Source: Gemmatimonadota bacterium (lineage in GTDB: Bacteria; Gemmatimonadota; Gemmatimonadetes; Gemmatimonadales; GWC2-71-9). From it: a DNA stretch of 64,000 nt. How positions within the stretch are numbered: the first letter of the stretch is position 1; every line of letters starts with the position of its first letter. Below the pieces are notes generated by a model. The model ran no database searches. It saw nothing but the letters and a program-made list of their open reading frames with translations, and was not told where the DNA came from. Below, piece after piece: positions 49,199-58,448 of this stretch. The stretch spans positions 1-64,000 of the forward strand of contig QHTZ01000074.1 of assembly GCA_003221005.1 (NCBI GenBank), written 5' to 3'. Position numbers and translations under genes: made by a program.

Positions 49199-49918
49199 GT
49201 GTTCCTCCAGGTAGGCCGTGCGGTTCCGACCACCCCATGGGACCTGGTGCTGACCTCGAGCCGCGAGACCAAGTTCGTGCTCGCGATCCTGGTCGCGTTC
49301 TCGCTCGTTTCGTGGTACCTGATCTTTCTCAAGTGGTGGCAATTCCGCCGCCTGCGGCGTCAGGCTGATCGCTTCTTGACGGAGATCGAGAAGGCGGCCC
49401 GGCTTGACGACGCCTACCATGCCGCCATGCGGCTCCCTGCGTCCCCCTACAACCGGTTGCTGCGCGAAGGGATTCACTTCTTCTCCGAGCTCAAACCGGG
49501 CGGCCTGAAGAGTGACGGGCCCGTGGGCGTGGCGCAGGGCACGCTCACCGCGACCCAGCTCGAGGCGTTGCGGATGGTCCTCGCCAAGGATGTGGCGGCC
49601 GAGCGCGACGCCGCGGCGCGGTTCATCCCGTGGCTCGCGACGTTCGGGTCGGTCAGCCCGCTGCTCGGCCTGCTGGGAACGGTGCTGGGCGTGATGGACG
49701 CATTCATCGGGATCGCCGTCGGGGGTTCGGGGAACATCGCGGCTGTCGCGCCCGGGGTCGCGGAGGCGCTCGTGACGACGGTCATGGGTCTCGCGGTCGC
49801 CGTCCCGTCGGTGATGGCGTATAACCTGTTCGTGAGCCGGTTGGGACTGTTCGCCGGAGAGCTGGAGGGGTTCGCGCAGGAGATCATCGGCACCATGGCG
49901 CGCGAAGGGTGGCTCTGA
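49199..49918 (+). CDS. tolQ: TolQ/ExbB proton channel
   Basis: SPLLGLLGTVLGVM, APGVAEALVTT. Confidence 0.9.
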   Translation: MFLQVGRAVPTTPWDLVLTSSRETKFVLAILVAFSLVSWYLIFLKWWQFRRLRRQADRFLTEIEKAARLDDAYHAAMRLPASPYNRLLREGIHFFSELKPGGLKSDGPVGVAQGTLTATQLEALRMVLAKDVAAERDAAARFIPWLATFGSVSPLLGLLGTVLGVMDAFIGIAVGGSGNIAAVAPGVAEALVTTVMGLAVAVPSVMAYNLFVSRLGLFAGELEGFAQEIIGTMAREGWL

Positions 49919-50356
49919 GTGGCCGGGCTGCTCGGTGGTGGAGGGGGACTGCGTGGGCACGGCGAGCTGCCCCTCAACGCCGATATCAACGTCACGTCGC
50001 TCGTGGACGTCGCGTTCGTCCTCCTCATCATCTTCATGATCACGGCGCCCATCATGCAGGGAGGCGTGGACGTGCGCCTCCCGCGCGCCGAGGCCCGCCC
50101 GCTCGAGCCGAAGCAGGGCCTCGTCATCACGCTCGACCGGGACGGCAAGATCTACCTCGACCAATCGCCGCTCTCCTACGAGGACTTCCGGGCCACATTT
50201 CCCGCGTTTGTGCGAACCAAACACCCGACCGGGGTGTACCTCCGGGCCGATGGTCGCGTTCCGTATGTCGATGTCGTTCAGGTGCTGGCCGTGATTCGCA
50301 CGGCGGGCGTCGCGGACGTGGGCCTCGTGGCCGAACCGGAGACGATCGAGCGGTGA
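49919..50356 (+). CDS. tolR: TolR/ExbD
   Basis: INVTSLVDVAFVLLIIFMITAP. Confidence 0.9.
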   Translation: MAGLLGGGGGLRGHGELPLNADINVTSLVDVAFVLLIIFMITAPIMQGGVDVRLPRAEARPLEPKQGLVITLDRDGKIYLDQSPLSYEDFRATFPAFVRTKHPTGVYLRADGRVPYVDVVQVLAVIRTAGVADVGLVAEPETIER

Positions 50357-51039
50357 GAGGGCGCCGCCCGCTGCCGGGGAACACGGGCCTGGGACTGGCG
50401 GGGACCGCGGTGGTGCATGGGCTCGCCGGCATCATCCTGTTCGGTAGCACCGCGCGTCACCGGCCGCCGCCACCGGTGTATAAGGTCCAACTGATCGCAG
50501 CCCCGGAGCCGGGCGCGGAGACGCGGAAAGCGCCGGAGGCGGTGGAGCGGCCGGCCGCGGAGCAGCCGGCGCCGGCGCTCAAACCCAAGCCGCAGCCGAA
50601 GAGCACGGTGTCCAAGGCGGCGCCGCCCCCGGCCCCTGACGCGGCGCACCGCGAAGCGGCGCCGCGCACCACTCCCAAGACGGCTCCGCTCCCCGGCGAG
50701 AAACCTTCGACGGGGAGCGACGTCGCCACGGTGAGCACGGAGGGCGTGGAGTTCCCCTACCCCGAGTATCTGCAGAACATCGTGACGCAGATCCTGCGGC
50801 GCTGGCAACGGCCGTTCCAGAGCACACCTCTGGAATCGGAAGTCTCCTTCTTCATTCACCGCGACGGCGCGATCACCGACCTGCAGTTCGTCAAGCGCTC
50901 CGGCAACTTCGCCTTCGATCTCGAAGCCGAGGGCGCCGTCGAAGAAGCGGGCCGGTTCAAGGCGTTCGGCGCCCTGCCAGCGGGGTGGCAGCCGGACGTG
51001 CTGTACGTGCGGTTCTACTTCAGCGGACGAAGGCAATAA
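50353..51039 (+). CDS. TolA/TonB-like protein
   Basis: TM helix with His, Pro/Lys/Ala linker, TonB_C-like SGNFAFD. Confidence 0.8.
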   Translation: MRGRRPLPGNTGLGLAGTAVVHGLAGIILFGSTARHRPPPPVYKVQLIAAPEPGAETRKAPEAVERPAAEQPAPALKPKPQPKSTVSKAAPPPAPDAAHREAAPRTTPKTAPLPGEKPSTGSDVATVSTEGVEFPYPEYLQNIVTQILRRWQRPFQSTPLESEVSFFIHRDGAITDLQFVKRSGNFAFDLEAEGAVEEAGRFKAFGALPAGWQPDVLYVRFYFSGRRQ

Positions 51040-52461
51040 ATGCGACGGAAAGACGGAAGGACGGAAGGACGGAAGTTGTGCTGGGCGGCGGTCGGCTGCT
51101 TGCTCACTCTTTCCGTCCTTCCGTCGTTCCGTCTTTCCGCCCAGGATACCTCCGCCATCGACCGCGGCGTCCGCATCGGGATCGTCTATCGGCCCGGTGT
51201 CAGACCCGGCGTCGTCCTGCTTCCCGATCGATCCACGGCGCTCGATTCGGTGCGCGCCATCCTGGCGCGTGACCTCGACTACAGCGACCGCTTCGAGCTC
51301 ATCACGCTGCCTGGTGGCGACTCGATCCGCGTGAGCGCGCCAGCCGCCGCCCGCGCGCCGGGCGCGCGCACGACGGCGGGTGCGCGGGCCCACACGGGCG
51401 GTGAGGCGGCGGGGCTCAATTACCCGTTGTACCAGGCGCTAGGCGCCGATTTCGCTATCGCGCTCGCCGCCGTGCGCGATACCACCCAGGTGACGATCCA
51501 CGATGTGACGGCCGGCGCGGTGCGGCGACTCCTGAAGGCCCGTCTCCCCACGGCGACGTCGTCCCAGTTCCGAATGGCAGTGCACCGGCTCGCCGACAAG
51601 ATTGTCGAAGCGACGCTCGGCACCGCGGGGACCGCGGCCACCCGCGTCCTCTTCGTGATGGACGGCAAGCTGTACCAGATCGACTCGGATGGCGCGGGCT
51701 TCAAGGAGATTCTCTCGACGAAAGGCCGCGCGATCCTGTCCCCCGTCTGGGACCGCGACGGGCGGCGCATTGCGTACATGGAGTTCTGGTCCGGACACGG
51801 TCAGCTCTTCGTCCAGGATGCCGCTACCGGCCGTCGCCGCGCCGTTACCGACGGCGCTACGCTGGACTTCACGCCGGTCTTCTCGCCCGACGGCAAGGGC
51901 CTGACGTTCAGCCGCGCCATCGAAGAAGGCACCGACGTGTACACGTTCAACCTCCGGGACAACTGCTGTTTACAGCGCTTGACCGTCGGGAGGTTTTCTG
52001 ACAACTTGTCTCCGGCCTACAGTCCAGACGGGCAGCGCATCGCGTTCGTGTCGACCCGGCCGGGCTTGCCGCAGATCTACGTGATGGCGGCGGACGGGAC
52101 CGACGAGCAGTTGTTCGCGCCGTTTGACTACGGGGTGACCGGCTCATCCAACGCGCCCGACTGGTCGCCCGATGGGCAGTCGGTAGCATTTCATCGCGAC
52201 GTGGCCGGGACGCTGCAGGTGTTCGTGCTGGATGTGCGGACGCGCACGGTCCGTCAGCTCACCTCCTTGGGGCGGAATGAAGACCCCACTTGGGCGCCCG
52301 ACAGCCGGCACGTGGCGTTTGTCTCCGATCGCTCGGGGTATCGGCAGCTCTGGGTGATCGACATGGAAACGGGTCGCATCCGGCCGCTGCTGCAGCAGAG
52401 CGGCGTCCGTTTGCCGGCATGGTCTCCGCGGCTTCCGGAGACCGAACAGTCCACCCCTTGA
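51040..52461 (+). CDS. tolB: TolB
   Basis: RDLDYSDRF N-terminal domain; PD40 repeats (FSPDG, YSPDG, WSPDG, WAPDS). Confidence 0.88.
   Translation: MRRKDGRTEGRKLCWAAVGCLLTLSVLPSFRLSAQDTSAIDRGVRIGIVYRPGVRPGVVLLPDRSTALDSVRAILARDLDYSDRFELITLPGGDSIRVSAPAAARAPGARTTAGARAHTGGEAAGLNYPLYQALGADFAIALAAVRDTTQVTIHDVTAGAVRRLLKARLPTATSSQFRMAVHRLADKIVEATLGTAGTAATRVLFVMDGKLYQIDSDGAGFKEILSTKGRAILSPVWDRDGRRIAYMEFWSGHGQLFVQDAATGRRRAVTDGATLDFTPVFSPDGKGLTFSRAIEEGTDVYTFNLRDNCCLQRLTVGRFSDNLSPAYSPDGQRIAFVSTRPGLPQIYVMAADGTDEQLFAPFDYGVTGSSNAPDWSPDGQSVAFHRDVAGTLQVFVLDVRTRTVRQLTSLGRNEDPTWAPDSRHVAFVSDRSGYRQLWVIDMETGRIRPLLQQSGVRLPAWSPRLPETEQSTP
51044..51141. repeat. Inverted pair of 8-nt tandem arrays encoding parts of the TolB signal peptide
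   Basis: (GACGGAAR)x4 at 51044-51075; TTTCCGTC CTTCCGTC GTTCCGTC TTTCCGCC at 51110-51141. Confidence 0.85.
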
Positions 52462-52478
52462 CCTGGAGAGCGCCTCAC

Positions 52479-53093
52479 ATGACACGCCCACTGCTGCTTG
52501 TGCTGGCCGGCCTCGTCACCGCGGGCGTGGTTGCCTGCGGGGGCAATCCGCAGCCTGCGACGCCCGCGCCGCAGGCCAATGCGGATTCGATCGCGGCCGC
52601 AGAGAAGGCACGGCAGGACTCCATCGCGGCGGCGGAGGCCGCGGCGCGGGCCCGTGAAGAGGCCGAGCGGGTCGCCCGGCAGCGCACCGCCGATTCACTG
52701 GCGGCGCTCGGCCGCGGCACCGAAGCGGTCCGCACGATGCTCGCCACGATGATTCACTTCGACTTCGACAAGTCGAACATCCGCTCGGACGACGCCGGGA
52801 CGCTCGACCAGAAGGTCGGGATCCTTCAGGCGAATTCCAATGCGCACATCCGCATCGCGGGGCATTGTGACGAGCGCGGCTCCGACGAGTACAACCTGGC
52901 CCTGGGCAACCGCCGCGCGACCGCGGCCAAGCAATACCTGGTGAGTCACGGCATCGACGGGGGCCGCATCGAGACACAGTCGTTCGGCAAGGAGCGGCCG
53001 CTCGACCCGGGGCACAACGAAGAAGCGTGGTCGAAGAACCGCCGCGACGAGTTCGACATCACCAGCGGCGGCGACGCGCTGAGACAGCCGTAA
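52479..53093 (+). CDS. pal: Peptidoglycan-associated lipoprotein
   Basis: Lipobox VVAC; FDFDKS, GHCDERGSDEYNLALGNRRA, SFGKERP, NRR. Confidence 0.95.
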   Translation: MTRPLLLVLAGLVTAGVVACGGNPQPATPAPQANADSIAAAEKARQDSIAAAEAAARAREEAERVARQRTADSLAALGRGTEAVRTMLATMIHFDFDKSNIRSDDAGTLDQKVGILQANSNAHIRIAGHCDERGSDEYNLALGNRRATAAKQYLVSHGIDGGRIETQSFGKERPLDPGHNEEAWSKNRRDEFDITSGGDALRQP

Positions 53094-53104
53094 GGACCCT
53101 TCGG

Positions 53105-53890
53105 TTGCTGCGAAAACTGTCGTTGATGCTCGGTGTCGCACTGCTCGGCGGATGCGCCCTCAAGGGGGACGTCCGCCGAGTTGAGTTGCAGGTCGCGGCG
53201 TTGAAGGCGGACTTGAGCGATGCGGACGCGGCGCGCAAGGCGCAGATCGATTCGCTGCTGGCCCTCGTCGCCGCCGTGCAGCAGGCGCTCGGCGCGCAGC
53301 AGCAGTATCTCGTTCGAATGCGCGGTGACGTCCGGACCGATCTCCTGTCCGTACAGCAGCAGCTGGTCGCGGTCCAGGAGCTCACCGGGCAGAGCCAGCA
53401 ACGTCTGACCGAGCTGCGCGGCCGTCTCGAGGAGCAGGCGCGACAGCCGGTGCCCCCGGTCGACAACCCCAATCCCACCGGGGCACCGGTCGGGCCGTCG
53501 GGCACCGTGGCAGGTCCGGGCCCCGACCGGATGTACGAACTCTCGCTCCAGCAGTACCGGCGTGGCAGCCTCGCCACCGCGCGCGTCGCCTTCCGCGAGT
53601 TCCTGCGGCTCTACCCCACTCATGACCGGGCGCCCGACGCGCTGTTCTACATCGGCGAGACGTTCGGCGGCGAGAACGCCGATTCGGCCGCCGCCGTGTA
53701 TCAACAGGTCGTGAAGACCTATCCCAACTCCACACGGGCTCCCTCGGCCCTGTACAAGCTGGGCCTCCTCGCCGAGACCCGGGGCGACAAGGCGACCGCT
53801 CGGACCTACTACCAACGGGTCGTGGCGGGATATCCCCGCTCGGACGAAGCCAACCTCGCCCGCGACAAGCTTCAGCGACTGGGGCGTTAG
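53105..53890 (+). CDS. cpoB: Tol-Pal system protein CpoB/YbgF
   Basis: TTG after AAGGA; lipobox LGGC; coiled coil plus TPRs; follows pal. Confidence 0.85.
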   Translation: MLRKLSLMLGVALLGGCALKGDVRRVELQVAALKADLSDADAARKAQIDSLLALVAAVQQALGAQQQYLVRMRGDVRTDLLSVQQQLVAVQELTGQSQQRLTELRGRLEEQARQPVPPVDNPNPTGAPVGPSGTVAGPGPDRMYELSLQQYRRGSLATARVAFREFLRLYPTHDRAPDALFYIGETFGGENADSAAAVYQQVVKTYPNSTRAPSALYKLGLLAETRGDKATARTYYQRVVAGYPRSDEANLARDKLQRLGR

Positions 53891-53914: not shown

Positions 53915-56900
53915 GTGCCTGACGAACCCACGCGGGGCGAGATGCCCTTCCTCGATCACCTCGAGGAACTGCGCTGGCGCATCCTGTACAGTCTGCTCGC
54001 CGTGCTCGTCGGAACGCTTGTCGGGTGGGTCATCGTCGAGCGGATCGACGTCATCGGGCTGCTGATCCGCCCGATCGCGCCGCTCATTCCCGGCGGCCGT
54101 CTCAAGTTCACGAGCCCCACCGAGCCGTTCTTCATCACGCTGAAGTTCGCCTTCGCTGTGGGGGTGCTGCTCGCTTCGCCCGTCGTCATCTACCAGATCT
54201 GGGCGTTCCTCGCCCCAGCGCTGTACGAGCGGGAGAAGCGCGTGATCGTTCCAGCCCTCTCGATCGGGGTGCTGTTGTTTCTCGCCGGGGCAGCAGCGGC
54301 GTACCTCTGGGTGCTGCCCCGGGCCCTGATCGTGCTGCTCAGTTTCCAGCGCGAAATTCTCGAGCCGATCATCACGGCGGACAAGTACTTCGGTTTCGCG
54401 GCTCAGATCATCATCGCCTTCGGTCTCGTGACCGAGCTGCCGCTCGTCATCGTGATCCTCGCGGCGCTCGGCCTGGTGACGCCGCAGTTCCTGGTGCGCC
54501 ACCGCCGCTATGCCATCGTGCTGTCGGCCCTCGCCGCGGCGCTCCTCTCCCCGCCTGACGCGGTCTCGATGGTGCTCATGATGGTCCCGCTGTGGCTGCT
54601 GTACGAGGTGAGCATCTTCTGCGCCTGGGTCGTGACCAAGCGCCGCGCCCGCCGCGAGCAGGCGGCCCACCGCGCCGCGCTGGTGCTGCTCCTGTTGAGC
54701 GGCGTGGCGGCGGGCCGCGTCGGGGCTCAGGGCGTCCCACCACGCGCCGATACGAGCGCCGGGCGGCCGGGGACGCCCGTGCGCGGCCAGACCATCGACA
54801 CCGCGGCCGCGCGCAAGCTCGGCCTTCCCACGGGGCCGACCCGCAGCTTTCCCGCGAGCGACCAGGTGATGGACTCGCTGCTCCGGCTCAAGGGATACCG
54901 TGTCACCCAGTACCTGGCCGACACGCTGATCGTCGCCGGCGACAGCCAGACCATCTTCCTCCGTGGGGAGGCGTTCGTCGACCGCCAGGGCACCAAGCTC
55001 GAGGCCGACTCGGTGCGCTACCGCGAGGCGAGCTGCCGGCTGGACGCCACCGGGGACCCGCGGCTCTTTGACCAGGGCACCGTGATGGTGGGCGAGGGCA
55101 TGCGCTACGACACGTGCGTCCGGCGCGGCACGGTGCGGCAGGCTTTCACGGATTTCCGGCAGGGGGCGGCGACCTGGTATGTGCGCGGCGACCTGGCGGT
55201 CGATTCGGGCTCGACCCGGGTGTACGGAGCCTCGAGCGAGATCACGTCCGACGACCACCCCGTGCCGGACTACCACTTCGCCACCGGACAGGTGAAGTGG
55301 CTCAACAAGAGCGTAATGATCGCCCGCCCCGCGGTCCTCTACGTCCGCGACGTGCCGATTCTGTGGCTGCCGTTCATTTTCCAGGACATCCGACCGGGCC
55401 GCCGCAGTGGTGTCCTGGTGCCGCGCTTCGGCCTGAACGACCTGATCCGGCAGACGCGCAGCTACCAGCGGCACTTTTCCAACCTGGGTTACTACTGGGT
55501 CGTGAACGACTACCTGGACCTGCTCGCGTCGGCCGATTGGTACGCCGGCCGGAACGTGACGCTGCGGGGCCAGTCACGCTACCGCTGGCTGGACCGCTTC
55601 GTCACTGGCAGCTTCACGTTCGCACGGGTGGATCAGCTCGACAGCCCGGCGTCCTCGATGCAGCTCAGCTGGCAGCACCAGCAGAGCTTCGACAGCCGCA
55701 CCAGCTTCAACGCCAGCATCAATTACGCGACGAGTGGCACGGTGCTGCAGCAGAATTCGGTCGACCCCTATCTCGCGACCGCGCAGCTGTCGTCGCAGTT
55801 GAACTTCAGCAAGCGATTCGACTGGGGGGCGCTGAACGTCGGCGGGAGCCGCTCCCAGGATCTTTCGAGCGGCGCGGTGACCCAAAGCTTCCCCGGGGTA
55901 ACCCTCACCCCCTCGCCGGTCAACATCACGCCCGACATCACCTGGTCGCCCGGGTTCTCGTTCACGAACCAGCAGTCGTTCCACTCGGGGCCTCCAACGC
56001 TGCTCCCGTTCCCCGGCACGGGCGCGGCGCTGGACACGGTCGCCCTGTTCAGCGCCAGCCGCCAGTCCGCCATCAGCCTGCAGACGCCGCTCCGCGTCGG
56101 CCGGTGGAACTGGGCCAACAGCATCACCATCAATGACGCCACAAGCGACCAGCGCCGGGAGTTCGCCATCCCGGATTCCACGGTACCTGGGGGCCGGCGC
56201 CGCAGGCTGTATGCGTCCACCTTTGCCACCCAGATCGATTGGCAAACGGGCATCAACCTCCCCCAGGTCCTGTCGGGTACATGGAAGGTCCAGCCGGGCC
56301 TCTCGATCGTGAACACGACGTCCGCCGGGCCGTTCATGCTGCGCAACCAGTTCACCAACGGGCAGTTCGTCGAGCAGGGGAAGCGCCTGCAATTCAGTGC
56401 GGGCATGCGCCCCACGTTGTTCGGCTTCTTCCCTGGATTCGGGCCGCTCGCGCGGATCCGGCATTCGATTTCACCGATCATCGACTGGCGCTACGCTCAG
56501 GGTAAGGACGTGGATAGCCTGTTCGCGTACGCGCTCGATCCGACGCGCACCACGCTCAACGCGCGTAGCGACGCGCAGCAGACGATCAGCATCGGACTGT
56601 CGCAGAACTTCGAAGGAAAGCTCCGCCCCCCGCCGCACGACACCGGCCAGCAGCAGGCACGCAAGCTGCGGTTACTGAGCATCAACACCGACCCGATCTC
56701 GTACAACTTCGAGCAGGCCAAGCAACCGGGGCAGACCGGGTGGCAGACGCAGACCGTCGGGAACACGTTCGCGTCGGACCTGCTCCCGAATTTCAGCCTG
56801 CGGCTGGTGCACGATCTCTGGGACGGGCCGGTGGGGCGCGATTCCTCCAAATTCGCGCCGTTCCTCACGAGCGTGAACGCGAGCTTCTCCATCTCACCGG

Positions 56901-57439
56901 CAACGGTGCGTGGCTTCGCACACCTCCTGGGGTTTCACACGGGAGCGGGCCCGGCGGCGGCGCCCGCACCCGCCCCAGCCGCCCCCGTCCCGCCCGTCGG
57001 GTCGATGCCACTTCCGACGCCCCCTCTGTTCAGCGGCCCGACCAGCAGTCTCGGCGCCGGCGCGGGAGGTGCGGGTGCCGGGCAGGGCTTCGCGCTCTCC
57101 GTTACCTACACCAGCACCCGCGTCCGGCCCGGGAAGGACAGCACCGGCGCGCCGATTCCGGTGCCCGCGGTGGCCGGGCAACAGGTGCTCAGTCTCAACC
57201 TGAGCTTCAAGCCGACTGCGAAGTGGCAGGCAAACTGGACGACCACGTACGACAGGGCGACGCATACGTTCGGAGAGCACTTCCTGCGATTGGAGCGGGA
57301 CCTGCACCGCTGGCACGCGAGCTTCGCGTTCGTGAAGAGTCCCAACGGCAACTTCGCCTTCACGTTCTTCGTGTCGTTGCTCGATCAGCCCGACATCAAG
57401 TTCAACTACGAGCAGCAGACACTGCAGAACGTTCCGTAA
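53915..57439 (+). CDS. tatC: TatC (aa 1 to about 240) fused through an internal signal-peptide-like segment to an LptD-like outer-membrane protein
   Basis: TatC motifs MPFLDHLEELR, SPTEPF, YQIWAFLAPAL, SPPD, LYEVS; LptD motifs PDYHF, VPILWLPF, RRSGVLVP, RDLHRW; no stop or frameshift between them. Confidence 0.85.
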   Translation: MPDEPTRGEMPFLDHLEELRWRILYSLLAVLVGTLVGWVIVERIDVIGLLIRPIAPLIPGGRLKFTSPTEPFFITLKFAFAVGVLLASPVVIYQIWAFLAPALYEREKRVIVPALSIGVLLFLAGAAAAYLWVLPRALIVLLSFQREILEPIITADKYFGFAAQIIIAFGLVTELPLVIVILAALGLVTPQFLVRHRRYAIVLSALAAALLSPPDAVSMVLMMVPLWLLYEVSIFCAWVVTKRRARREQAAHRAALVLLLLSGVAAGRVGAQGVPPRADTSAGRPGTPVRGQTIDTAAARKLGLPTGPTRSFPASDQVMDSLLRLKGYRVTQYLADTLIVAGDSQTIFLRGEAFVDRQGTKLEADSVRYREASCRLDATGDPRLFDQGTVMVGEGMRYDTCVRRGTVRQAFTDFRQGAATWYVRGDLAVDSGSTRVYGASSEITSDDHPVPDYHFATGQVKWLNKSVMIARPAVLYVRDVPILWLPFIFQDIRPGRRSGVLVPRFGLNDLIRQTRSYQRHFSNLGYYWVVNDYLDLLASADWYAGRNVTLRGQSRYRWLDRFVTGSFTFARVDQLDSPASSMQLSWQHQQSFDSRTSFNASINYATSGTVLQQNSVDPYLATAQLSSQLNFSKRFDWGALNVGGSRSQDLSSGAVTQSFPGVTLTPSPVNITPDITWSPGFSFTNQQSFHSGPPTLLPFPGTGAALDTVALFSASRQSAISLQTPLRVGRWNWANSITINDATSDQRREFAIPDSTVPGGRRRRLYASTFATQIDWQTGINLPQVLSGTWKVQPGLSIVNTTSAGPFMLRNQFTNGQFVEQGKRLQFSAGMRPTLFGFFPGFGPLARIRHSISPIIDWRYAQGKDVDSLFAYALDPTRTTLNARSDAQQTISIGLSQNFEGKLRPPPHDTGQQQARKLRLLSINTDPISYNFEQAKQPGQTGWQTQTVGNTFASDLLPNFSLRLVHDLWDGPVGRDSSKFAPFLTSVNASFSISPATVRGFAHLLGFHTGAGPAAAPAPAPAAPVPPVGSMPLPTPPLFSGPTSSLGAGAGGAGAGQGFALSVTYTSTRVRPGKDSTGAPIPVPAVAGQQVLSLNLSFKPTAKWQANWTTTYDRATHTFGEHFLRLERDLHRWHASFAFVKSPNGNFAFTFFVSLLDQPDIKFNYEQQTLQNVP

Positions 57440-57572
57440 GCCGGCGGTTCGCCTGTCCCCTGGTGAGGACAGCCGAAATCCAGGTTTCGCGGGTAACACG
57501 AAGCGGGCACGTCACTTCGTATCGGGCATGCCGCCTGCGGAGACGAACGCCAACCTTCGTCAAAAGGAACCT

Positions 57573-58448
57573 ATGCGCACGCCGTTTGCGACCCTCCTAG
57601 CTGCCGCGGGGCTCGTCGCCCTCGGGTGCAACAACACGAACTCAGTCGGGGCGCCTCTCCCTGCGCCCCAGGACGTGGCATCGGTCTCCTTGAACCAGGC
57701 GATTGACCTGTATTGGGCGGACAACTCGTACGCCAGCGCGCCCTCCCGGTTCTTGTGGTATCGCATCTTCAGCACCAGCTACGATAACGTTCGCTGTGGC
57801 GCCACGTGGCAACTCGAAGGGACGACGATCGCCCCCGAATTCCTCGTGGGGGCACTCACGAACGGCGTGCCGCGCTGCTACACGGTCACGGCTGTCGCCA
57901 TCGACGGGGCTGAGAGCGACCAGTCCCTCCCGTGGCAGGACACGCCTCGCCCCGATGCGCGCAACGTGGTGCTCTACGCGTCCGCCACCAAGGCCGATTC
58001 CTCGGGGTTCCTGTTCTGGGACGACGCCAACAACGACGGCGTCGGCGATCCCAACGAACTGGGGCTCGTCGAGAATCCCAGCGGGGGCATCGTCGACTTC
58101 AAGATCGACCGCAACAACGCCGATTCGACTCTCTGGCTCGTGCCGGTCTACTCCGGGACCACGATGTTGGAGTACGGCACGGTTGACGATCTCACGTCCA
58201 TCGACTACGCGCCCGCCACCGGGTATAGCCGCGACTCGCTGCAAGCGTTCCCGGGGGACGGCTACGTCTTCAAGATCGTGGACCCCTCTGGTCTCCACTA
58301 CGGCGCGGTGCGCGTGACGCATGTCGGTCGGCGGTATCTCATCCTCGACTGGAGCGTGCAGACCGATCCCGGCAACCCCGAGCTCGTGGTGCGGGGCGGC
58401 TTGCTCACCGCGAAGCCGACGGGCTCGATGGTCGCCACGCCGCGCTAA
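57573..58448 (+). CDS. Hypothetical lipoprotein (FN3-like N-terminal domain, DANNDG calcium-binding-like loop)
   Basis: AAGGAA RBS; lipobox ALGC; PAPQ...W...Y...YTVTAV...ES pattern. Confidence 0.65.
   Translation: MRTPFATLLAAAGLVALGCNNTNSVGAPLPAPQDVASVSLNQAIDLYWADNSYASAPSRFLWYRIFSTSYDNVRCGATWQLEGTTIAPEFLVGALTNGVPRCYTVTAVAIDGAESDQSLPWQDTPRPDARNVVLYASATKADSSGFLFWDDANNDGVGDPNELGLVENPSGGIVDFKIDRNNADSTLWLVPVYSGTTMLEYGTVDDLTSIDYAPATGYSRDSLQAFPGDGYVFKIVDPSGLHYGAVRVTHVGRRYLILDWSVQTDPGNPELVVRGGLLTAKPTGSMVATPR

What the first reader, a model, noticed from the sequence alone, without database searches (positions are those of the whole stretch)
53915..57439. TatC-LptD polyprotein joined by an internal cleavable signal peptide
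Seen: one 1174-aa ORF holds a complete TatC, then KRRARREQAAHR (basic), AALVLLLLSGVAA (hydrophobic), GRVGA|QG (SPase I-like site, A271/Q272, nt 54727/54728), then a full LptD-like protein. No SD-backed internal start is evident. Known: TatC is a 6-TM inner-membrane protein with a cytoplasmic C-terminus, while LptD is a Sec-exported, BAM-inserted outer-membrane barrel, so they cannot work as one chain in their usual locations. Inference: the linker acts as a seventh TM/signal that is cleaved to release LptD, a bacterial polyprotein coupling Tat and LPS-transport biogenesis. An uncleaved trans-envelope tether, or an RR-containing linker engaging its own TatC, are alternatives.
Basis: partly seen in the sequence, partly recalled or inferred. 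Interest (0 to 1): 0.85.

Follow-up and report, generated by a model that had tools for sequence, protein, structure and literature searches.

The report
TatC–LptD fusion split by signal peptide
A family of soil Gemmatimonadota encodes its only TatC (inner-membrane export protein) and its only LptD-like outer-membrane protein as one chain, joined by what still looks like LptD's own cleavable signal peptide, so the cell most likely cuts the chain in two during export.

Summary
Window 53915..57439 (+) is one open frame of 1174 aa: a complete TatC, a basic stretch, a 14-residue hydrophobic stretch, RVGA|Q, then a full LptD-like protein. It is not an assembly error. Contigs from two other soil runs cross the junction without indels. 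The same fusion is present in 79 of 91 species genomes of the family.

In sister families tatC and lptD are adjacent separate genes, and the fused linker corresponds to the N-terminal signal peptide of the separate LptD. All 29 fused genome junctions keep A/G at -1, A/L/V/S at -3 and Gln at +1. Q272 is invariant in 94 fused proteins, while the hydrophobic core varies freely. No internal start codon is conserved.

Best reading (about 0.7): a natural bacterial polyprotein. TatC inserts, the retained signal peptide acts as a seventh membrane segment and exports the LptD part, and signal peptidase I cuts after A271. Cleavage is inferred, not shown. I found no evidence for functional coupling of Tat and LPS transport, because fused and split states interconvert among close relatives. 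Three literature searches found no description.

The parts
53915..57439 (+). Whole fused ORF tatC::lptD (1174 aa from GTG 53915; 1165 aa if it starts at ATG 53942); stop codon at 57437-57439
53954..54589 (+). TatC domain (aa 14-225), the only TatC in the genome
   Evidence: Pfam PF00902 E 1.9e-62. Whole-genome search finds one match. PDB TatC profile match E 2.3e-64. Foldseek to TatC 4b4a, TM-score on target 0.79.
54560..54637 (+). TatC TM6 region (about aa 216-241), ending on the cytoplasmic side
   Evidence: hydropathy; AF2 helix 216-264; TatC topology is established knowledge, recalled
54638..54673 (+). Basic cytoplasmic stretch K242-R253. It is TatC's post-TM6 basic cluster and doubles as the signal-peptide n-region
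   Evidence: direct reading; R243 invariant, R244 and R246 >=90% in 94 fused proteins; the same cluster is present in split TatCs
54674..54715 (+). Hydrophobic h-region A254-G267 (14 uncharged residues), predicted seventh membrane segment with N-in, C-out orientation
   Evidence: sequence not conserved, only hydrophobicity (consensus)
54716..54727 (+). c-region R268-V-G-A271. Predicted signal peptidase I site lies after A271 (nt 54727/54728)
   Evidence: -1 is A/G and -3 is A/L/V/S in 29 of 29 fused genome junctions; A271 >=90% conserved
54728..57436 (+). Predicted mature LptD-like protein, Q272-P1174 (903 aa)
   Evidence: Q272 invariant in 94 of 94; Foldseek top hits are LptD of LptDE complexes, E 3.4e-23
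54797..54850 (+). Conserved motif D295-F312 (DTAAARKLGLPTGPTRSF) in the otherwise disordered N-terminal stretch of the mature part
   Evidence: invariant D295 A299 G303 P305 P308; also present in split orthologues
54905..55252 (+). N-terminal beta-jellyroll-like domain (aa 331-446)
   Evidence: AF2 strands 331-446; PDB LptD 7omm profile match over aa 334-648, E 1.4e-5
55316..57379 (+). Large C-terminal beta-barrel (aa 468-1155)
   Evidence: AF2; Foldseek LptD hits; Pfam LptD_2
49199..53890 (+). Upstream same-strand envelope cluster: tolQ (49199-49918), tolR (49919-50356), TonB_2/TolA-like (ORF 49909-51039), tolB-like (51040-52461), pal-like OmpA (to 53093), cpoB/ybgF-like TPR (53027-53890)
   Evidence: Pfam
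57528..58448 (+). Downstream conserved lipoprotein-like ORF (306 aa). It follows lptD in relatives, has an FN3-like fold and does not look like LptE

Best explanation
This is a conserved gene fusion that makes a TatC-LptD precursor, in other words a bacterial polyprotein. The two genes are ancestrally adjacent or overlapping (tol-pal, cpoB, tatC, lptD). In this family the tatC stop codon and TatC's acidic C-tail were lost, so TatC runs directly into LptD's own signal peptide.

The inferred mechanism has four steps. (1) TatC's six helices insert co-translationally with the C-terminus of TM6 in the cytoplasm. (2) The basic cluster plus the short hydrophobic stretch (aa 242-267) then engages the Sec machinery as an internal signal peptide or seventh membrane segment (N-in, C-out) and starts export of the 903-aa LptD part. 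(3) Signal peptidase I cuts after A271, releasing LptD with an N-terminal Gln for normal chaperone/BAM-dependent assembly in the outer membrane. (4) TatC keeps the former signal peptide as a C-terminal seventh helix unless it is trimmed later.

Shown here: the fusion, its conservation, the homology of the linker to the N-terminal signal peptide of separate LptD genes, and the conservation of the cleavage-site pattern. Inferred: the Sec route, the cleavage, and the fate of the seventh helix.
For: 1. Both halves are complete and are the genome's only copies. There is one TatC, no other LptD-type gene with PF04453 and one match to the whole protein.
2. The rest of both pathways is present: two TatA/B genes, 4 Tat-signal matches over the cut-off, LptF/G, LpxC and two S26 signal peptidase I genes. 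Both products therefore have to work.
3. The fusion is present in 79 of 91 family genomes, with 7 adjacent-split, 3 on different contigs and 2 undetermined. The 79 include one-contig genomes.
4. In split relatives LptD starts with a normal signal peptide ending small-x-small|Q in 27 of 28 loci. The fused linkers keep the same pattern in 29 of 29 genomes.
5. Among 95 anchored database proteins, -1 is A/G in 85, and the other 10 read L-Q-A|Q two residues further on. No charged residue occurs at -1 or -3, while D/E/R/K/H fill 40 of 95 at -2. Twenty-six of 121 proteins were not anchored and were left out.
6. In an independent MAFFT alignment of 94 fused proteins Q272 is invariant and A271 is >=90% conserved, while the h-region has no consensus.
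7. The h-region is 14 uncharged residues, which is signal-peptide length.
8. No internal start is conserved. Among 28 fused loci, 2 have no in-frame ATG/GTG/TTG 14-40 aa before the site and only 5 have an SD-backed one, against 10 of 27 split loci.
9. Fused and split states alternate between close relatives; the label needs at least 6 changes on the TatC tree. This is expected if both give the same two mature proteins.
10. Gln is the commonest +1 residue after signal-peptide-like N-termini in this genome: 39 of 198, against 6-14 at the next seven positions, by a crude home-made predictor.
Against: The linker is Ala/Gly/Leu-rich, so small residues near the site are partly expected from composition. 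The contrast between -1/-3 and -2/-4 is the argument, not the small residues as such. GTG and TTG codons are common in-frame (26 of 28 fused loci have one 14-40 aa upstream), so some internal initiation cannot be excluded. The AF2 model draws TM6 and the linker as one continuous helix with pLDDT under 50 from residue 263, which gives no support for a hairpin. A seventh helix left on TatC could be harmful for Tat assembly, and nothing here shows how that is handled. The only precedent I can name (FbcH) is recalled, not read.
Confidence: 0.7

Rival explanations
1. Uncleaved trans-envelope chain. The hydrophobic linker stays as a seventh transmembrane anchor, and the LptD barrel sits in the outer membrane while tethered to TatC through the ~60-residue flexible stretch Q272-~330.
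For: One frame with no stop. A low-confidence, probably flexible stretch at 263-294 lies between the linker and the jellyroll. Nothing here measures cleavage.
Against: It gives no reason for the strict -1 A/G, uncharged -3 and invariant +1 Gln shared with the N-terminal signal peptides of split orthologues. The flexible stretch is equally present in split LptDs, so it is not a fusion-specific tether. A 14-residue uncharged core is short for a stable anchor. Frequent switching between fused and split states would repeatedly make and break such a tether.
Confidence: 0.1
2. Two proteins by independent translation. LptD is made mainly from an internal start (GTG 54632 here), and the read-through TatC-LptD chain is a tolerated by-product.
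For: GTG 54632 would give a plausible 32-residue signal peptide. Twenty-six of 28 fused loci have some in-frame ATG/GTG/TTG 14-40 aa before the site, and 6 have an ATG.
Against: There is no SD before GTG 54632. SD-backed starts occur in only 5 of 28 fused loci, and 2 loci (G005 of the same genus, and G012) have no start codon there at all. Without a stop codon every TatC chain still runs on into LptD, so the fused chain is made in any case and the sole TatC must work from it.
Confidence: 0.12
3. Artefact: a sequencing or assembly frameshift, or a pseudogene, in a metagenome-assembled genome.
For: The genome is a 141-contig assembly. One congener (G001) has its LptD part in three frames.
Against: Contigs of other runs cross the junction without indels. 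The same frame is found in 79 of 91 family genomes, including one-contig genomes. All 120 listed database relatives carry both domains. Both halves show strong conservation.
Confidence: 0.01
4. Tat-dependent route: the RR-rich linker is a twin-arginine signal recognised by its own TatC.
For: K242-R-R-A-R-R247 contains paired arginines.
Against: The same basic cluster follows TM6 in split TatCs, where the protein simply ends. The residues after RR are A-R-R-E, not the hydrophobic pair of the Tat consensus (motif recalled). In this window six residues (E248-R253) separate the basic cluster from the h-region, and in relatives the whole basic n-region varies from 5 to 21 residues. Outer-membrane barrels cross the inner membrane unfolded, which is established knowledge.
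Confidence: 0.01

Closest known systems
Separate adjacent tatC and lptD (LptD_2) genes of sister families of Gemmatimonadota
   Same: Same two proteins in the same order and the same tol-pal/cpoB neighbourhood. LptD starts with a signal peptide ending small-x-small|Q.
   Different: There a stop codon ends TatC after an acidic tail. The genes overlap in different frames, are separated by a short gap, or lie in the same frame with a single stop (G040, G152, G153, G128). Here the stop and the tail are gone.
FbcH cytochrome b-c1 precursor of Bradyrhizobium japonicum (Thony-Meyer, James, Hennecke, PNAS 1991)
   Same: As I recall it, one gene encodes a polytopic inner-membrane protein followed by an internal signal sequence and a periplasm-facing protein, and the precursor is cut into two proteins.
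   Different: Those two products belong to one complex in the same membrane. Here the products belong to unrelated machines in two different membranes. I saw only the title, in a reference list. The paper was not held, so the content is recalled.
Viral membrane polyproteins cut by host signal peptidase at internal signal sequences (flaviviruses; tomato ringspot virus NTB-VPg)
   Same: A multi-pass membrane chain is resolved by signal peptidase after short hydrophobic segments (abstracts only, listing: PMC6756788, PMC5010249).
   Different: Those are eukaryotic ER and viral genomes. Here it is a cellular bacterial gene pair.
LptD of LptDE complexes (e.g. PDB 4q35, 8h1s, 5iv9, 7omm)
   Same: N-terminal jellyroll plus a very large barrel. 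Foldseek E 3.4e-23 to 2e-20; profile match to 7omm E 1.4e-5.
   Different: Only 9-12% identity. It belongs to Pfam LptD_2, not PF04453/PF03968, and scores far below the NCBIfam LptD equivalog cut-offs (21 bits against 683). No LptE was identified.
Bacteroidetes Q-rule (Gln at +1 of signal peptidase I substrates, cyclised to pyroglutamate; PMC5837995)
   Same: Invariant Gln at the predicted +1 and Gln enrichment at +1 in this genome.
   Different: I read the abstract and passages. The paper says the rule does not hold for the whole FCB group and does not mention Gemmatimonadetes. The enrichment here is partial (39 of 198) and comes from a crude predictor.

Membership tests
TatC (PF00902) | Full-length match to the family profile | tested here: met
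   aa 14-225, profile 1-208/208, 211 bits against a cut-off of 25.1; PDB TatC E 2.3e-64
TatC (PF00902) | Six-helix TatC fold | tested here: met
   AF2 helices; Foldseek to 4b4a, 4hts and 9dzz with TM-score on target 0.78-0.80; hydropathy
TatC (PF00902) | Partner TatA/B and Tat substrates in the same genome | tested here: met
   two TatA_B_E genes on the same contig; 4 TIGR01409 matches over the cut-off
LptD (outer-membrane LPS translocon) | N-terminal beta-jellyroll followed by a very large beta-barrel | tested here: met
   AF2 strands 331-446 and 468-1155; the top 12 Foldseek hits are LptD chains
LptD (outer-membrane LPS translocon) | Match to canonical LptD sequence models (PF04453, PF03968, NCBIfam equivalogs) | tested here: not met
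   No PF04453 or PF03968 match in the genome. NCBIfam LptD scores 21 and 20 bits against cut-offs of 683 and 944. It does match Pfam LptD_2 PF19838 at E 1.2e-39.
LptD (outer-membrane LPS translocon) | LptE-type lipoprotein plug partner | tested here: inconclusive
   No LptE was searched for by family. The conserved downstream lipoprotein has FN3-like folds, not an LptE-like one.
LptD (outer-membrane LPS translocon) | LPS synthesis and the rest of the Lpt pathway present | tested here: met
   LpxC; LptF/LptG
Sec-type signal peptide cleaved by signal peptidase I (here internal) | Positively charged n-region, short hydrophobic h-region, and a c-region with small uncharged residues at -1 and -3 | tested here: met
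   K242-R253; 14 uncharged residues at 254-267; V269 and A271. The pattern is kept in 29 of 29 fused genomes and in 95 of 95 anchored proteins counting the 10 L-Q-A|Q cases.
Sec-type signal peptide cleaved by signal peptidase I (here internal) | Signal peptidase I encoded in the genome | tested here: met
   two Peptidase_S26 genes
Sec-type signal peptide cleaved by signal peptidase I (here internal) | Cleavage demonstrated, or predicted by a trained predictor | not testable with these tools
   No SignalP/DeepTMHMM and no proteomics were available.
Bacterial polyprotein resolved at an internal signal peptide (FbcH type) | One ORF holding two proteins that are separate genes in relatives, joined by a signal-peptide-like segment | tested here: met
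Bacterial polyprotein resolved at an internal signal peptide (FbcH type) | Two mature proteins produced from the one chain | not testable with these tools
   needs protein-level data
Twin-arginine signal peptide | S/T-R-R-x-F-L-K-like motif close to the h-region (motif recalled) | tested here: not met
   The sequence reads T-K-R-R-A-R-R-E. The cluster is TatC's own and is also present in split TatCs.

The most novel reading that the evidence does not exclude
The chain is not, or not always, cut. TatC in the inner membrane and the LptD barrel in the outer membrane would stay covalently linked through the seventh helix and the ~60-residue flexible stretch, forming a permanent trans-envelope tether. 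A milder version would also be new: the chain is cut, but the former signal peptide stays on TatC as a working seventh helix beside TM5/TM6, where TatA/TatB dock, and LptD export becomes strictly co-translational and 1:1 with TatC.
Probability: 0.1. Interest if true: 0.9.

Novelty: new variant of a known kind. Interest (0 to 1): 0.62.

Why it matters
If cleavage is confirmed, this is a widespread natural bacterial polyprotein. It would show that signal peptidase I can resolve a fusion between a polytopic inner-membrane protein and an outer-membrane barrel. It would also show that an outer-membrane protein can be exported as the C-terminal continuation of a co-translationally inserted membrane protein, and that TatC tolerates, or uses, an extra C-terminal helix.

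It gives Tat and Lpt researchers a ready-made natural construct to test. It also matters for annotation. Every source name visible calls these proteins only 'TatC', so surveys of outer-membrane genes can miss LptD in this family.

The repeated fusion and fission of overlapping neighbour genes is a clear example of how a downstream signal peptide makes a gene fusion harmless.

Tried and rejected
Assembly error: rejected.

Tat-type signal in the linker: rejected (direct reading).

SD-based test of internal initiation: the genome uses SD only moderately. A 4-mer motif lies 5-18 nt upstream of 405 of 1780 crude first starts, against 183 in a coding control window (the cruder version is). Absence of an SD is therefore weak evidence. 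The locus counts show no conserved start but cannot exclude some initiation.

AF2 of the whole chain (pLDDT 76): it confirms the domains but draws TM6 plus the linker as one helix with low confidence, so it says nothing on how a seventh helix would sit. The tool returns no coordinates, so I did not fold TatC plus the linker alone.

Downstream lipoprotein as an LptE candidate: no Pfam or NCBIfam family. The AF2 model (pLDDT 73.5) matches tandem FN3-type domains, not LptE. Rejected as LptE-like; function left open.

Genome-wide Q-at-+1 test: the first version was too noisy. The second is still a home-made predictor that includes lipoproteins and membrane proteins, so I use it only as a weak line of evidence.

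Rows with 'stops inside' could not be classed from the tables, because the open-frame figure reads through stops. I fetched them. Nine were fused with the stop at the gene end (G022 and G024; G049, G111, G095, G057, G050, G105 and G046). G048, G067 and G083, listed as two hits in one frame, also proved fused. Four were split by one in-frame stop (G040; G152, G153 and G128).

TatC tree: 52 rows. Left out were loci whose TatC match was under 200 aa (contig ends, e.g. L005), loci without a TatC match (e.g. L009, L010), and L040-L047. L067-L072 were fetched later. L020 is labelled 'adjacent' there, but its junction is fused; the breaks lie inside LptD. The rows were chosen to include every split case I had, so the tree says nothing about frequencies. 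The root is at the midpoint only.

Parts of runs X2 and X3 cover the junction only in short pieces.

Literature: no paper on a TatC-LptD fusion was found with 'tatc, lptd, fusion' (9 papers, listing only), 'gemmatimonad, tatc' or 'gemmatimonad, lptd'. The TatC diversity paper PMC3827258 has no occurrence of 'fusion' or 'fused' (passages). PMC8871954 mentions the Gemmatimonadetes tol-pal cluster but no fusion (passages). Searches for the FbcH precedent found nothing usable. led to its title in a reference list. Supplements are closed and were not consulted; the synteny folders of PMC8871954 might show this locus.

I did not use complex prediction, the search of protein representatives or the protein-atlas search.

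Full report
OBSERVATION

Window 53915..57439 (+) is a single open frame of 1174 aa. Pfam finds a complete TatC at aa 14-225 (E 1.9e-62, full profile) and LptD_2 (PF19838) from aa 469 (E 1.2e-39). Between them lie K242RRARREQAAHR253, an uncharged run A254-G267 of 14 residues, and R268VGA271 followed by Q272. The database copy of this protein is 1165 aa, which fits a start at ATG 53942 instead of GTG 53915. This does not affect the fusion.

An AF2 model built on 94 fused homologues has mean pLDDT 76. It shows the TatC helices, a low-confidence stretch at 263-294, a beta-jellyroll-like domain at 331-446 and a large barrel at 468-1155. The top Foldseek hits are LptD chains of LptDE complexes (E 3.4e-23 to 2e-20), and TatC structures match with a TM-score on target of 0.78-0.80. 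A profile of the family matches solved TatC (E 2.3e-64) and solved LptD (7omm, E 1.4e-5) by sequence.

NOT AN ARTEFACT

Contigs from public soil metagenome runs of four studies were laid on 54200-55200. One contig of X1 (54200-55068) and one of X4 (the whole stretch) cross the junction with 1 and 3 substitutions and no gaps, and no indel was reported in any run. One run may be the source sample.

The comparison with relatives is stronger. In a sample of 91 species genomes of the same family (including this one), the junction lies in one uninterrupted frame in 79. It is split with the genes adjacent in 7, the genes lie on different contigs in 3, and 2 cannot be judged because of contig ends (ambiguous rows resolved by fetching the DNA, others). 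One of the 79 (G087) is an unpublished genome. The fused set includes genomes assembled in one to a few contigs. All 120 listed database relatives (63-100% identity) carry both Pfam domains, and every source name visible there (rows without a name aside) calls them only 'TatC'.

WHAT THE LINKER IS

In sister families of the same order and class, tatC and the lptD-like gene are neighbours in the same order. They overlap in different frames, are separated by a short gap, or lie in the same frame with one stop codon between them (G040, G152, G153, G128).

There TatC ends after the same basic cluster plus an acidic or Ala-rich tail. LptD begins with an ordinary signal peptide that ends small-x-small followed by Gln in 27 of 28 split loci (in L025 no site was found). 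The fused linker is therefore TatC's post-TM6 basic cluster joined to LptD's own signal peptide.

All 29 fused genome junctions examined keep A or G at -1, A/L/V/S at -3 and Gln at +1.

In the database set, 95 of 121 proteins could be anchored by two flanking motifs; the other 26 were left out. Of the 95, 85 have A/G before the first Gln after the hydrophobic core, and the other 10 read L-Q-A|Q two residues further on. No charged residue occurs at -1 or -3, whereas D/E/R/K/H make up 40 of 95 at -2, and Gly dominates at -5. This is the classical signal peptidase I pattern.

A MAFFT alignment of 94 fused proteins was made without reference to the site. It gives Q272 as invariant and A271 as at least 90% conserved, in a region whose hydrophobic core has no consensus residue. 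That profile (composition conserved, sequence free, cleavage positions fixed) is what a signal peptide shows. It is not what a helix that packs permanently against a partner shows.

BOTH HALVES MUST WORK

The genome (94% complete) has one TatC. It has no PF04453 LptD and no second match to this protein. It also has two TatA/B genes about 10 kb downstream on the same contig, four Tat-signal matches over the curated cut-off, LptF/LptG, LpxC and two signal peptidase I genes. Among the 79 fused genomes, only G103 shows a clear second TatC; G048 also has a further match, a fragment that itself spans the junction. The sole TatC and the sole LptD-like protein of these organisms are therefore made as one chain.

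INTERNAL INITIATION

GTG 54632 (Val240) would give a plausible 32-residue signal peptide, but it has no SD-like motif. The genome does use SD motifs to a moderate degree.

Across 28 fused loci, 2 have no in-frame ATG/GTG/TTG 14-40 residues before the site (G005 of the same genus, and G012). Five have an SD-backed start there, against 10 of 27 split loci. No start is conserved. Without a stop codon, every ribosome that makes TatC goes on into LptD. Internal initiation may add some LptD in some species, but it cannot be the general solution.

EVOLUTION

On a maximum-likelihood tree of 52 TatC domains (rows chosen to include all split cases; midpoint root only), the fused/adjacent label needs at least 6 changes. 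Close pairs differ in state, for example G019 fused and G104 split in one genus.

Fusions also occur outside the family: 2 of 28 genomes of a sister family (G035, G162). G035 also keeps a stand-alone TatC.

Stand-alone TatCs of four family genomes (G013, G018, G094, and the second copy of G103) belong to another TatC lineage that groups with the sister family (support 100/100). In three of these genomes LptD stands alone with its own signal peptide.

Easy switching between states fits the view that both arrangements yield the same two mature proteins. It gives no support to a functional coupling of Tat and LPS transport.

MECHANISM

Most likely (about 0.7), TatC inserts co-translationally. The basic cluster stays in the cytoplasm, and the short hydrophobic stretch enters the translocon as an internal signal peptide and starts export of the LptD part. 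Signal peptidase I then cuts after A271. LptD, with N-terminal Gln, goes on to the outer membrane. TatC keeps the former signal peptide as a seventh helix unless it is trimmed.

The steps from insertion onward are inference from established knowledge of TatC topology, Sec export and signal peptidase I specificity.

Gln at +1 is also the commonest residue after signal-peptide-like N-termini in this genome: 39 of 198, against 6-14 at the next seven positions (crude predictor). This recalls the Q-rule described for Bacteroidetes (PMC5837995, abstract and passages).

RIVALS

- An uncut trans-envelope tether (0.1) is not excluded by any measurement, but it does not explain the conserved cleavage pattern.
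- Mainly internal initiation: 0.12.
- Artefact: 0.01.
- A Tat-type signal: 0.01.

COMPARISON WITH WHAT IS KNOWN

The closest kind I know is the cytochrome b-c1 precursor FbcH of Bradyrhizobium japonicum. I saw only its title, in a reference list; the content is recalled. Viral membrane polyproteins cut by host signal peptidase are a further analogue (abstracts).

The LptD half has the LptD fold. It belongs to Pfam LptD_2, fails the canonical LptD models, and has no identified LptE.

Searches for a description of a TatC-LptD fusion found none.

I rate this a new variant of a known kind: a cellular polyprotein resolved at an internal signal peptide, here joining two unrelated machines of two membranes and fixed across a whole family.

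CONTEXT

The gene closes a same-strand envelope cluster: tolQ, tolR, a TolA-like gene, tolB, pal and cpoB/ybgF. It is followed by a conserved lipoprotein with FN3-like domains.

LIMITS

- There is no protein-level or RNA-level evidence.
- No trained signal-peptide predictor was available.
- Family and genus labels are coded. The organism names (Gemmatimonadales, Gemmatimonadetes) come from source names of homologues.

Noticed in passing
window 54797-54850 (aa 295-312): A strongly conserved motif, DTAxARRLGLPTGPxRxF (invariant D295, A299, G303, P305, P308), sits in the otherwise variable and disordered N-terminal stretch of the mature LptD-like protein, before the jellyroll. It is present in both fused and split orthologues. 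Its function is unknown; it may be a docking site for a partner.
   Followed up: partly
window 57528-58448 (+): A 306-aa ORF with a lipoprotein-like N-terminus (…LVALGC) lies directly downstream of lptD and is conserved there in family and sister-family loci (tblastn hits in 32 loci, including the window's own L001). It matches no Pfam or NCBIfam family. Its AF2 model (pLDDT 73.5) matches tandem FN3-type domains, not LptE.
   Followed up: partly
whole genome G000: Gln is the commonest residue right after predicted signal peptidase I sites (39 of 198 crude candidates, against 6-14 at neighbouring positions). This suggests a partial 'Q-rule' like that described for Bacteroidetes.
   Followed up: partly
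L037 (G018), L038 (G013), L063 (G103), L065 (G094), L039 (G035): Some genomes carry a stand-alone TatC of a second lineage that groups with the sister family's TatC. Where it is present, the fused TatC can be absent and LptD stands alone (G013, G018, G094).
   Followed up: partly
L020 (G001, same genus): The junction is fused, but the LptD part then runs through three reading frames. This is either assembly errors in an 83%-complete genome or a decaying gene.
   Followed up: no
L057 (G083): This fused form has a ~50-residue Gly/Asp/Pro-rich insertion in the cytoplasmic loop between TM6 and the hydrophobic linker, so the loop length is not constrained.
   Followed up: no
window aa 374 and 401 of the ORF (nt ~55034 and ~55115): The only near-invariant cysteines of the LptD part (C374, C401) both lie in the jellyroll. 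There is no conserved Cys in the barrel, so the inter-domain disulfides known from E. coli LptD (recalled) are probably not formed here.
   Followed up: no
window 49199-53890 (+): A complete tol-pal cluster (tolQ, tolR, TolA-like, tolB, pal, cpoB) lies directly upstream on the same strand, with only small gaps or overlaps. The fused gene may be its last-but-one cistron.
   Followed up: partly
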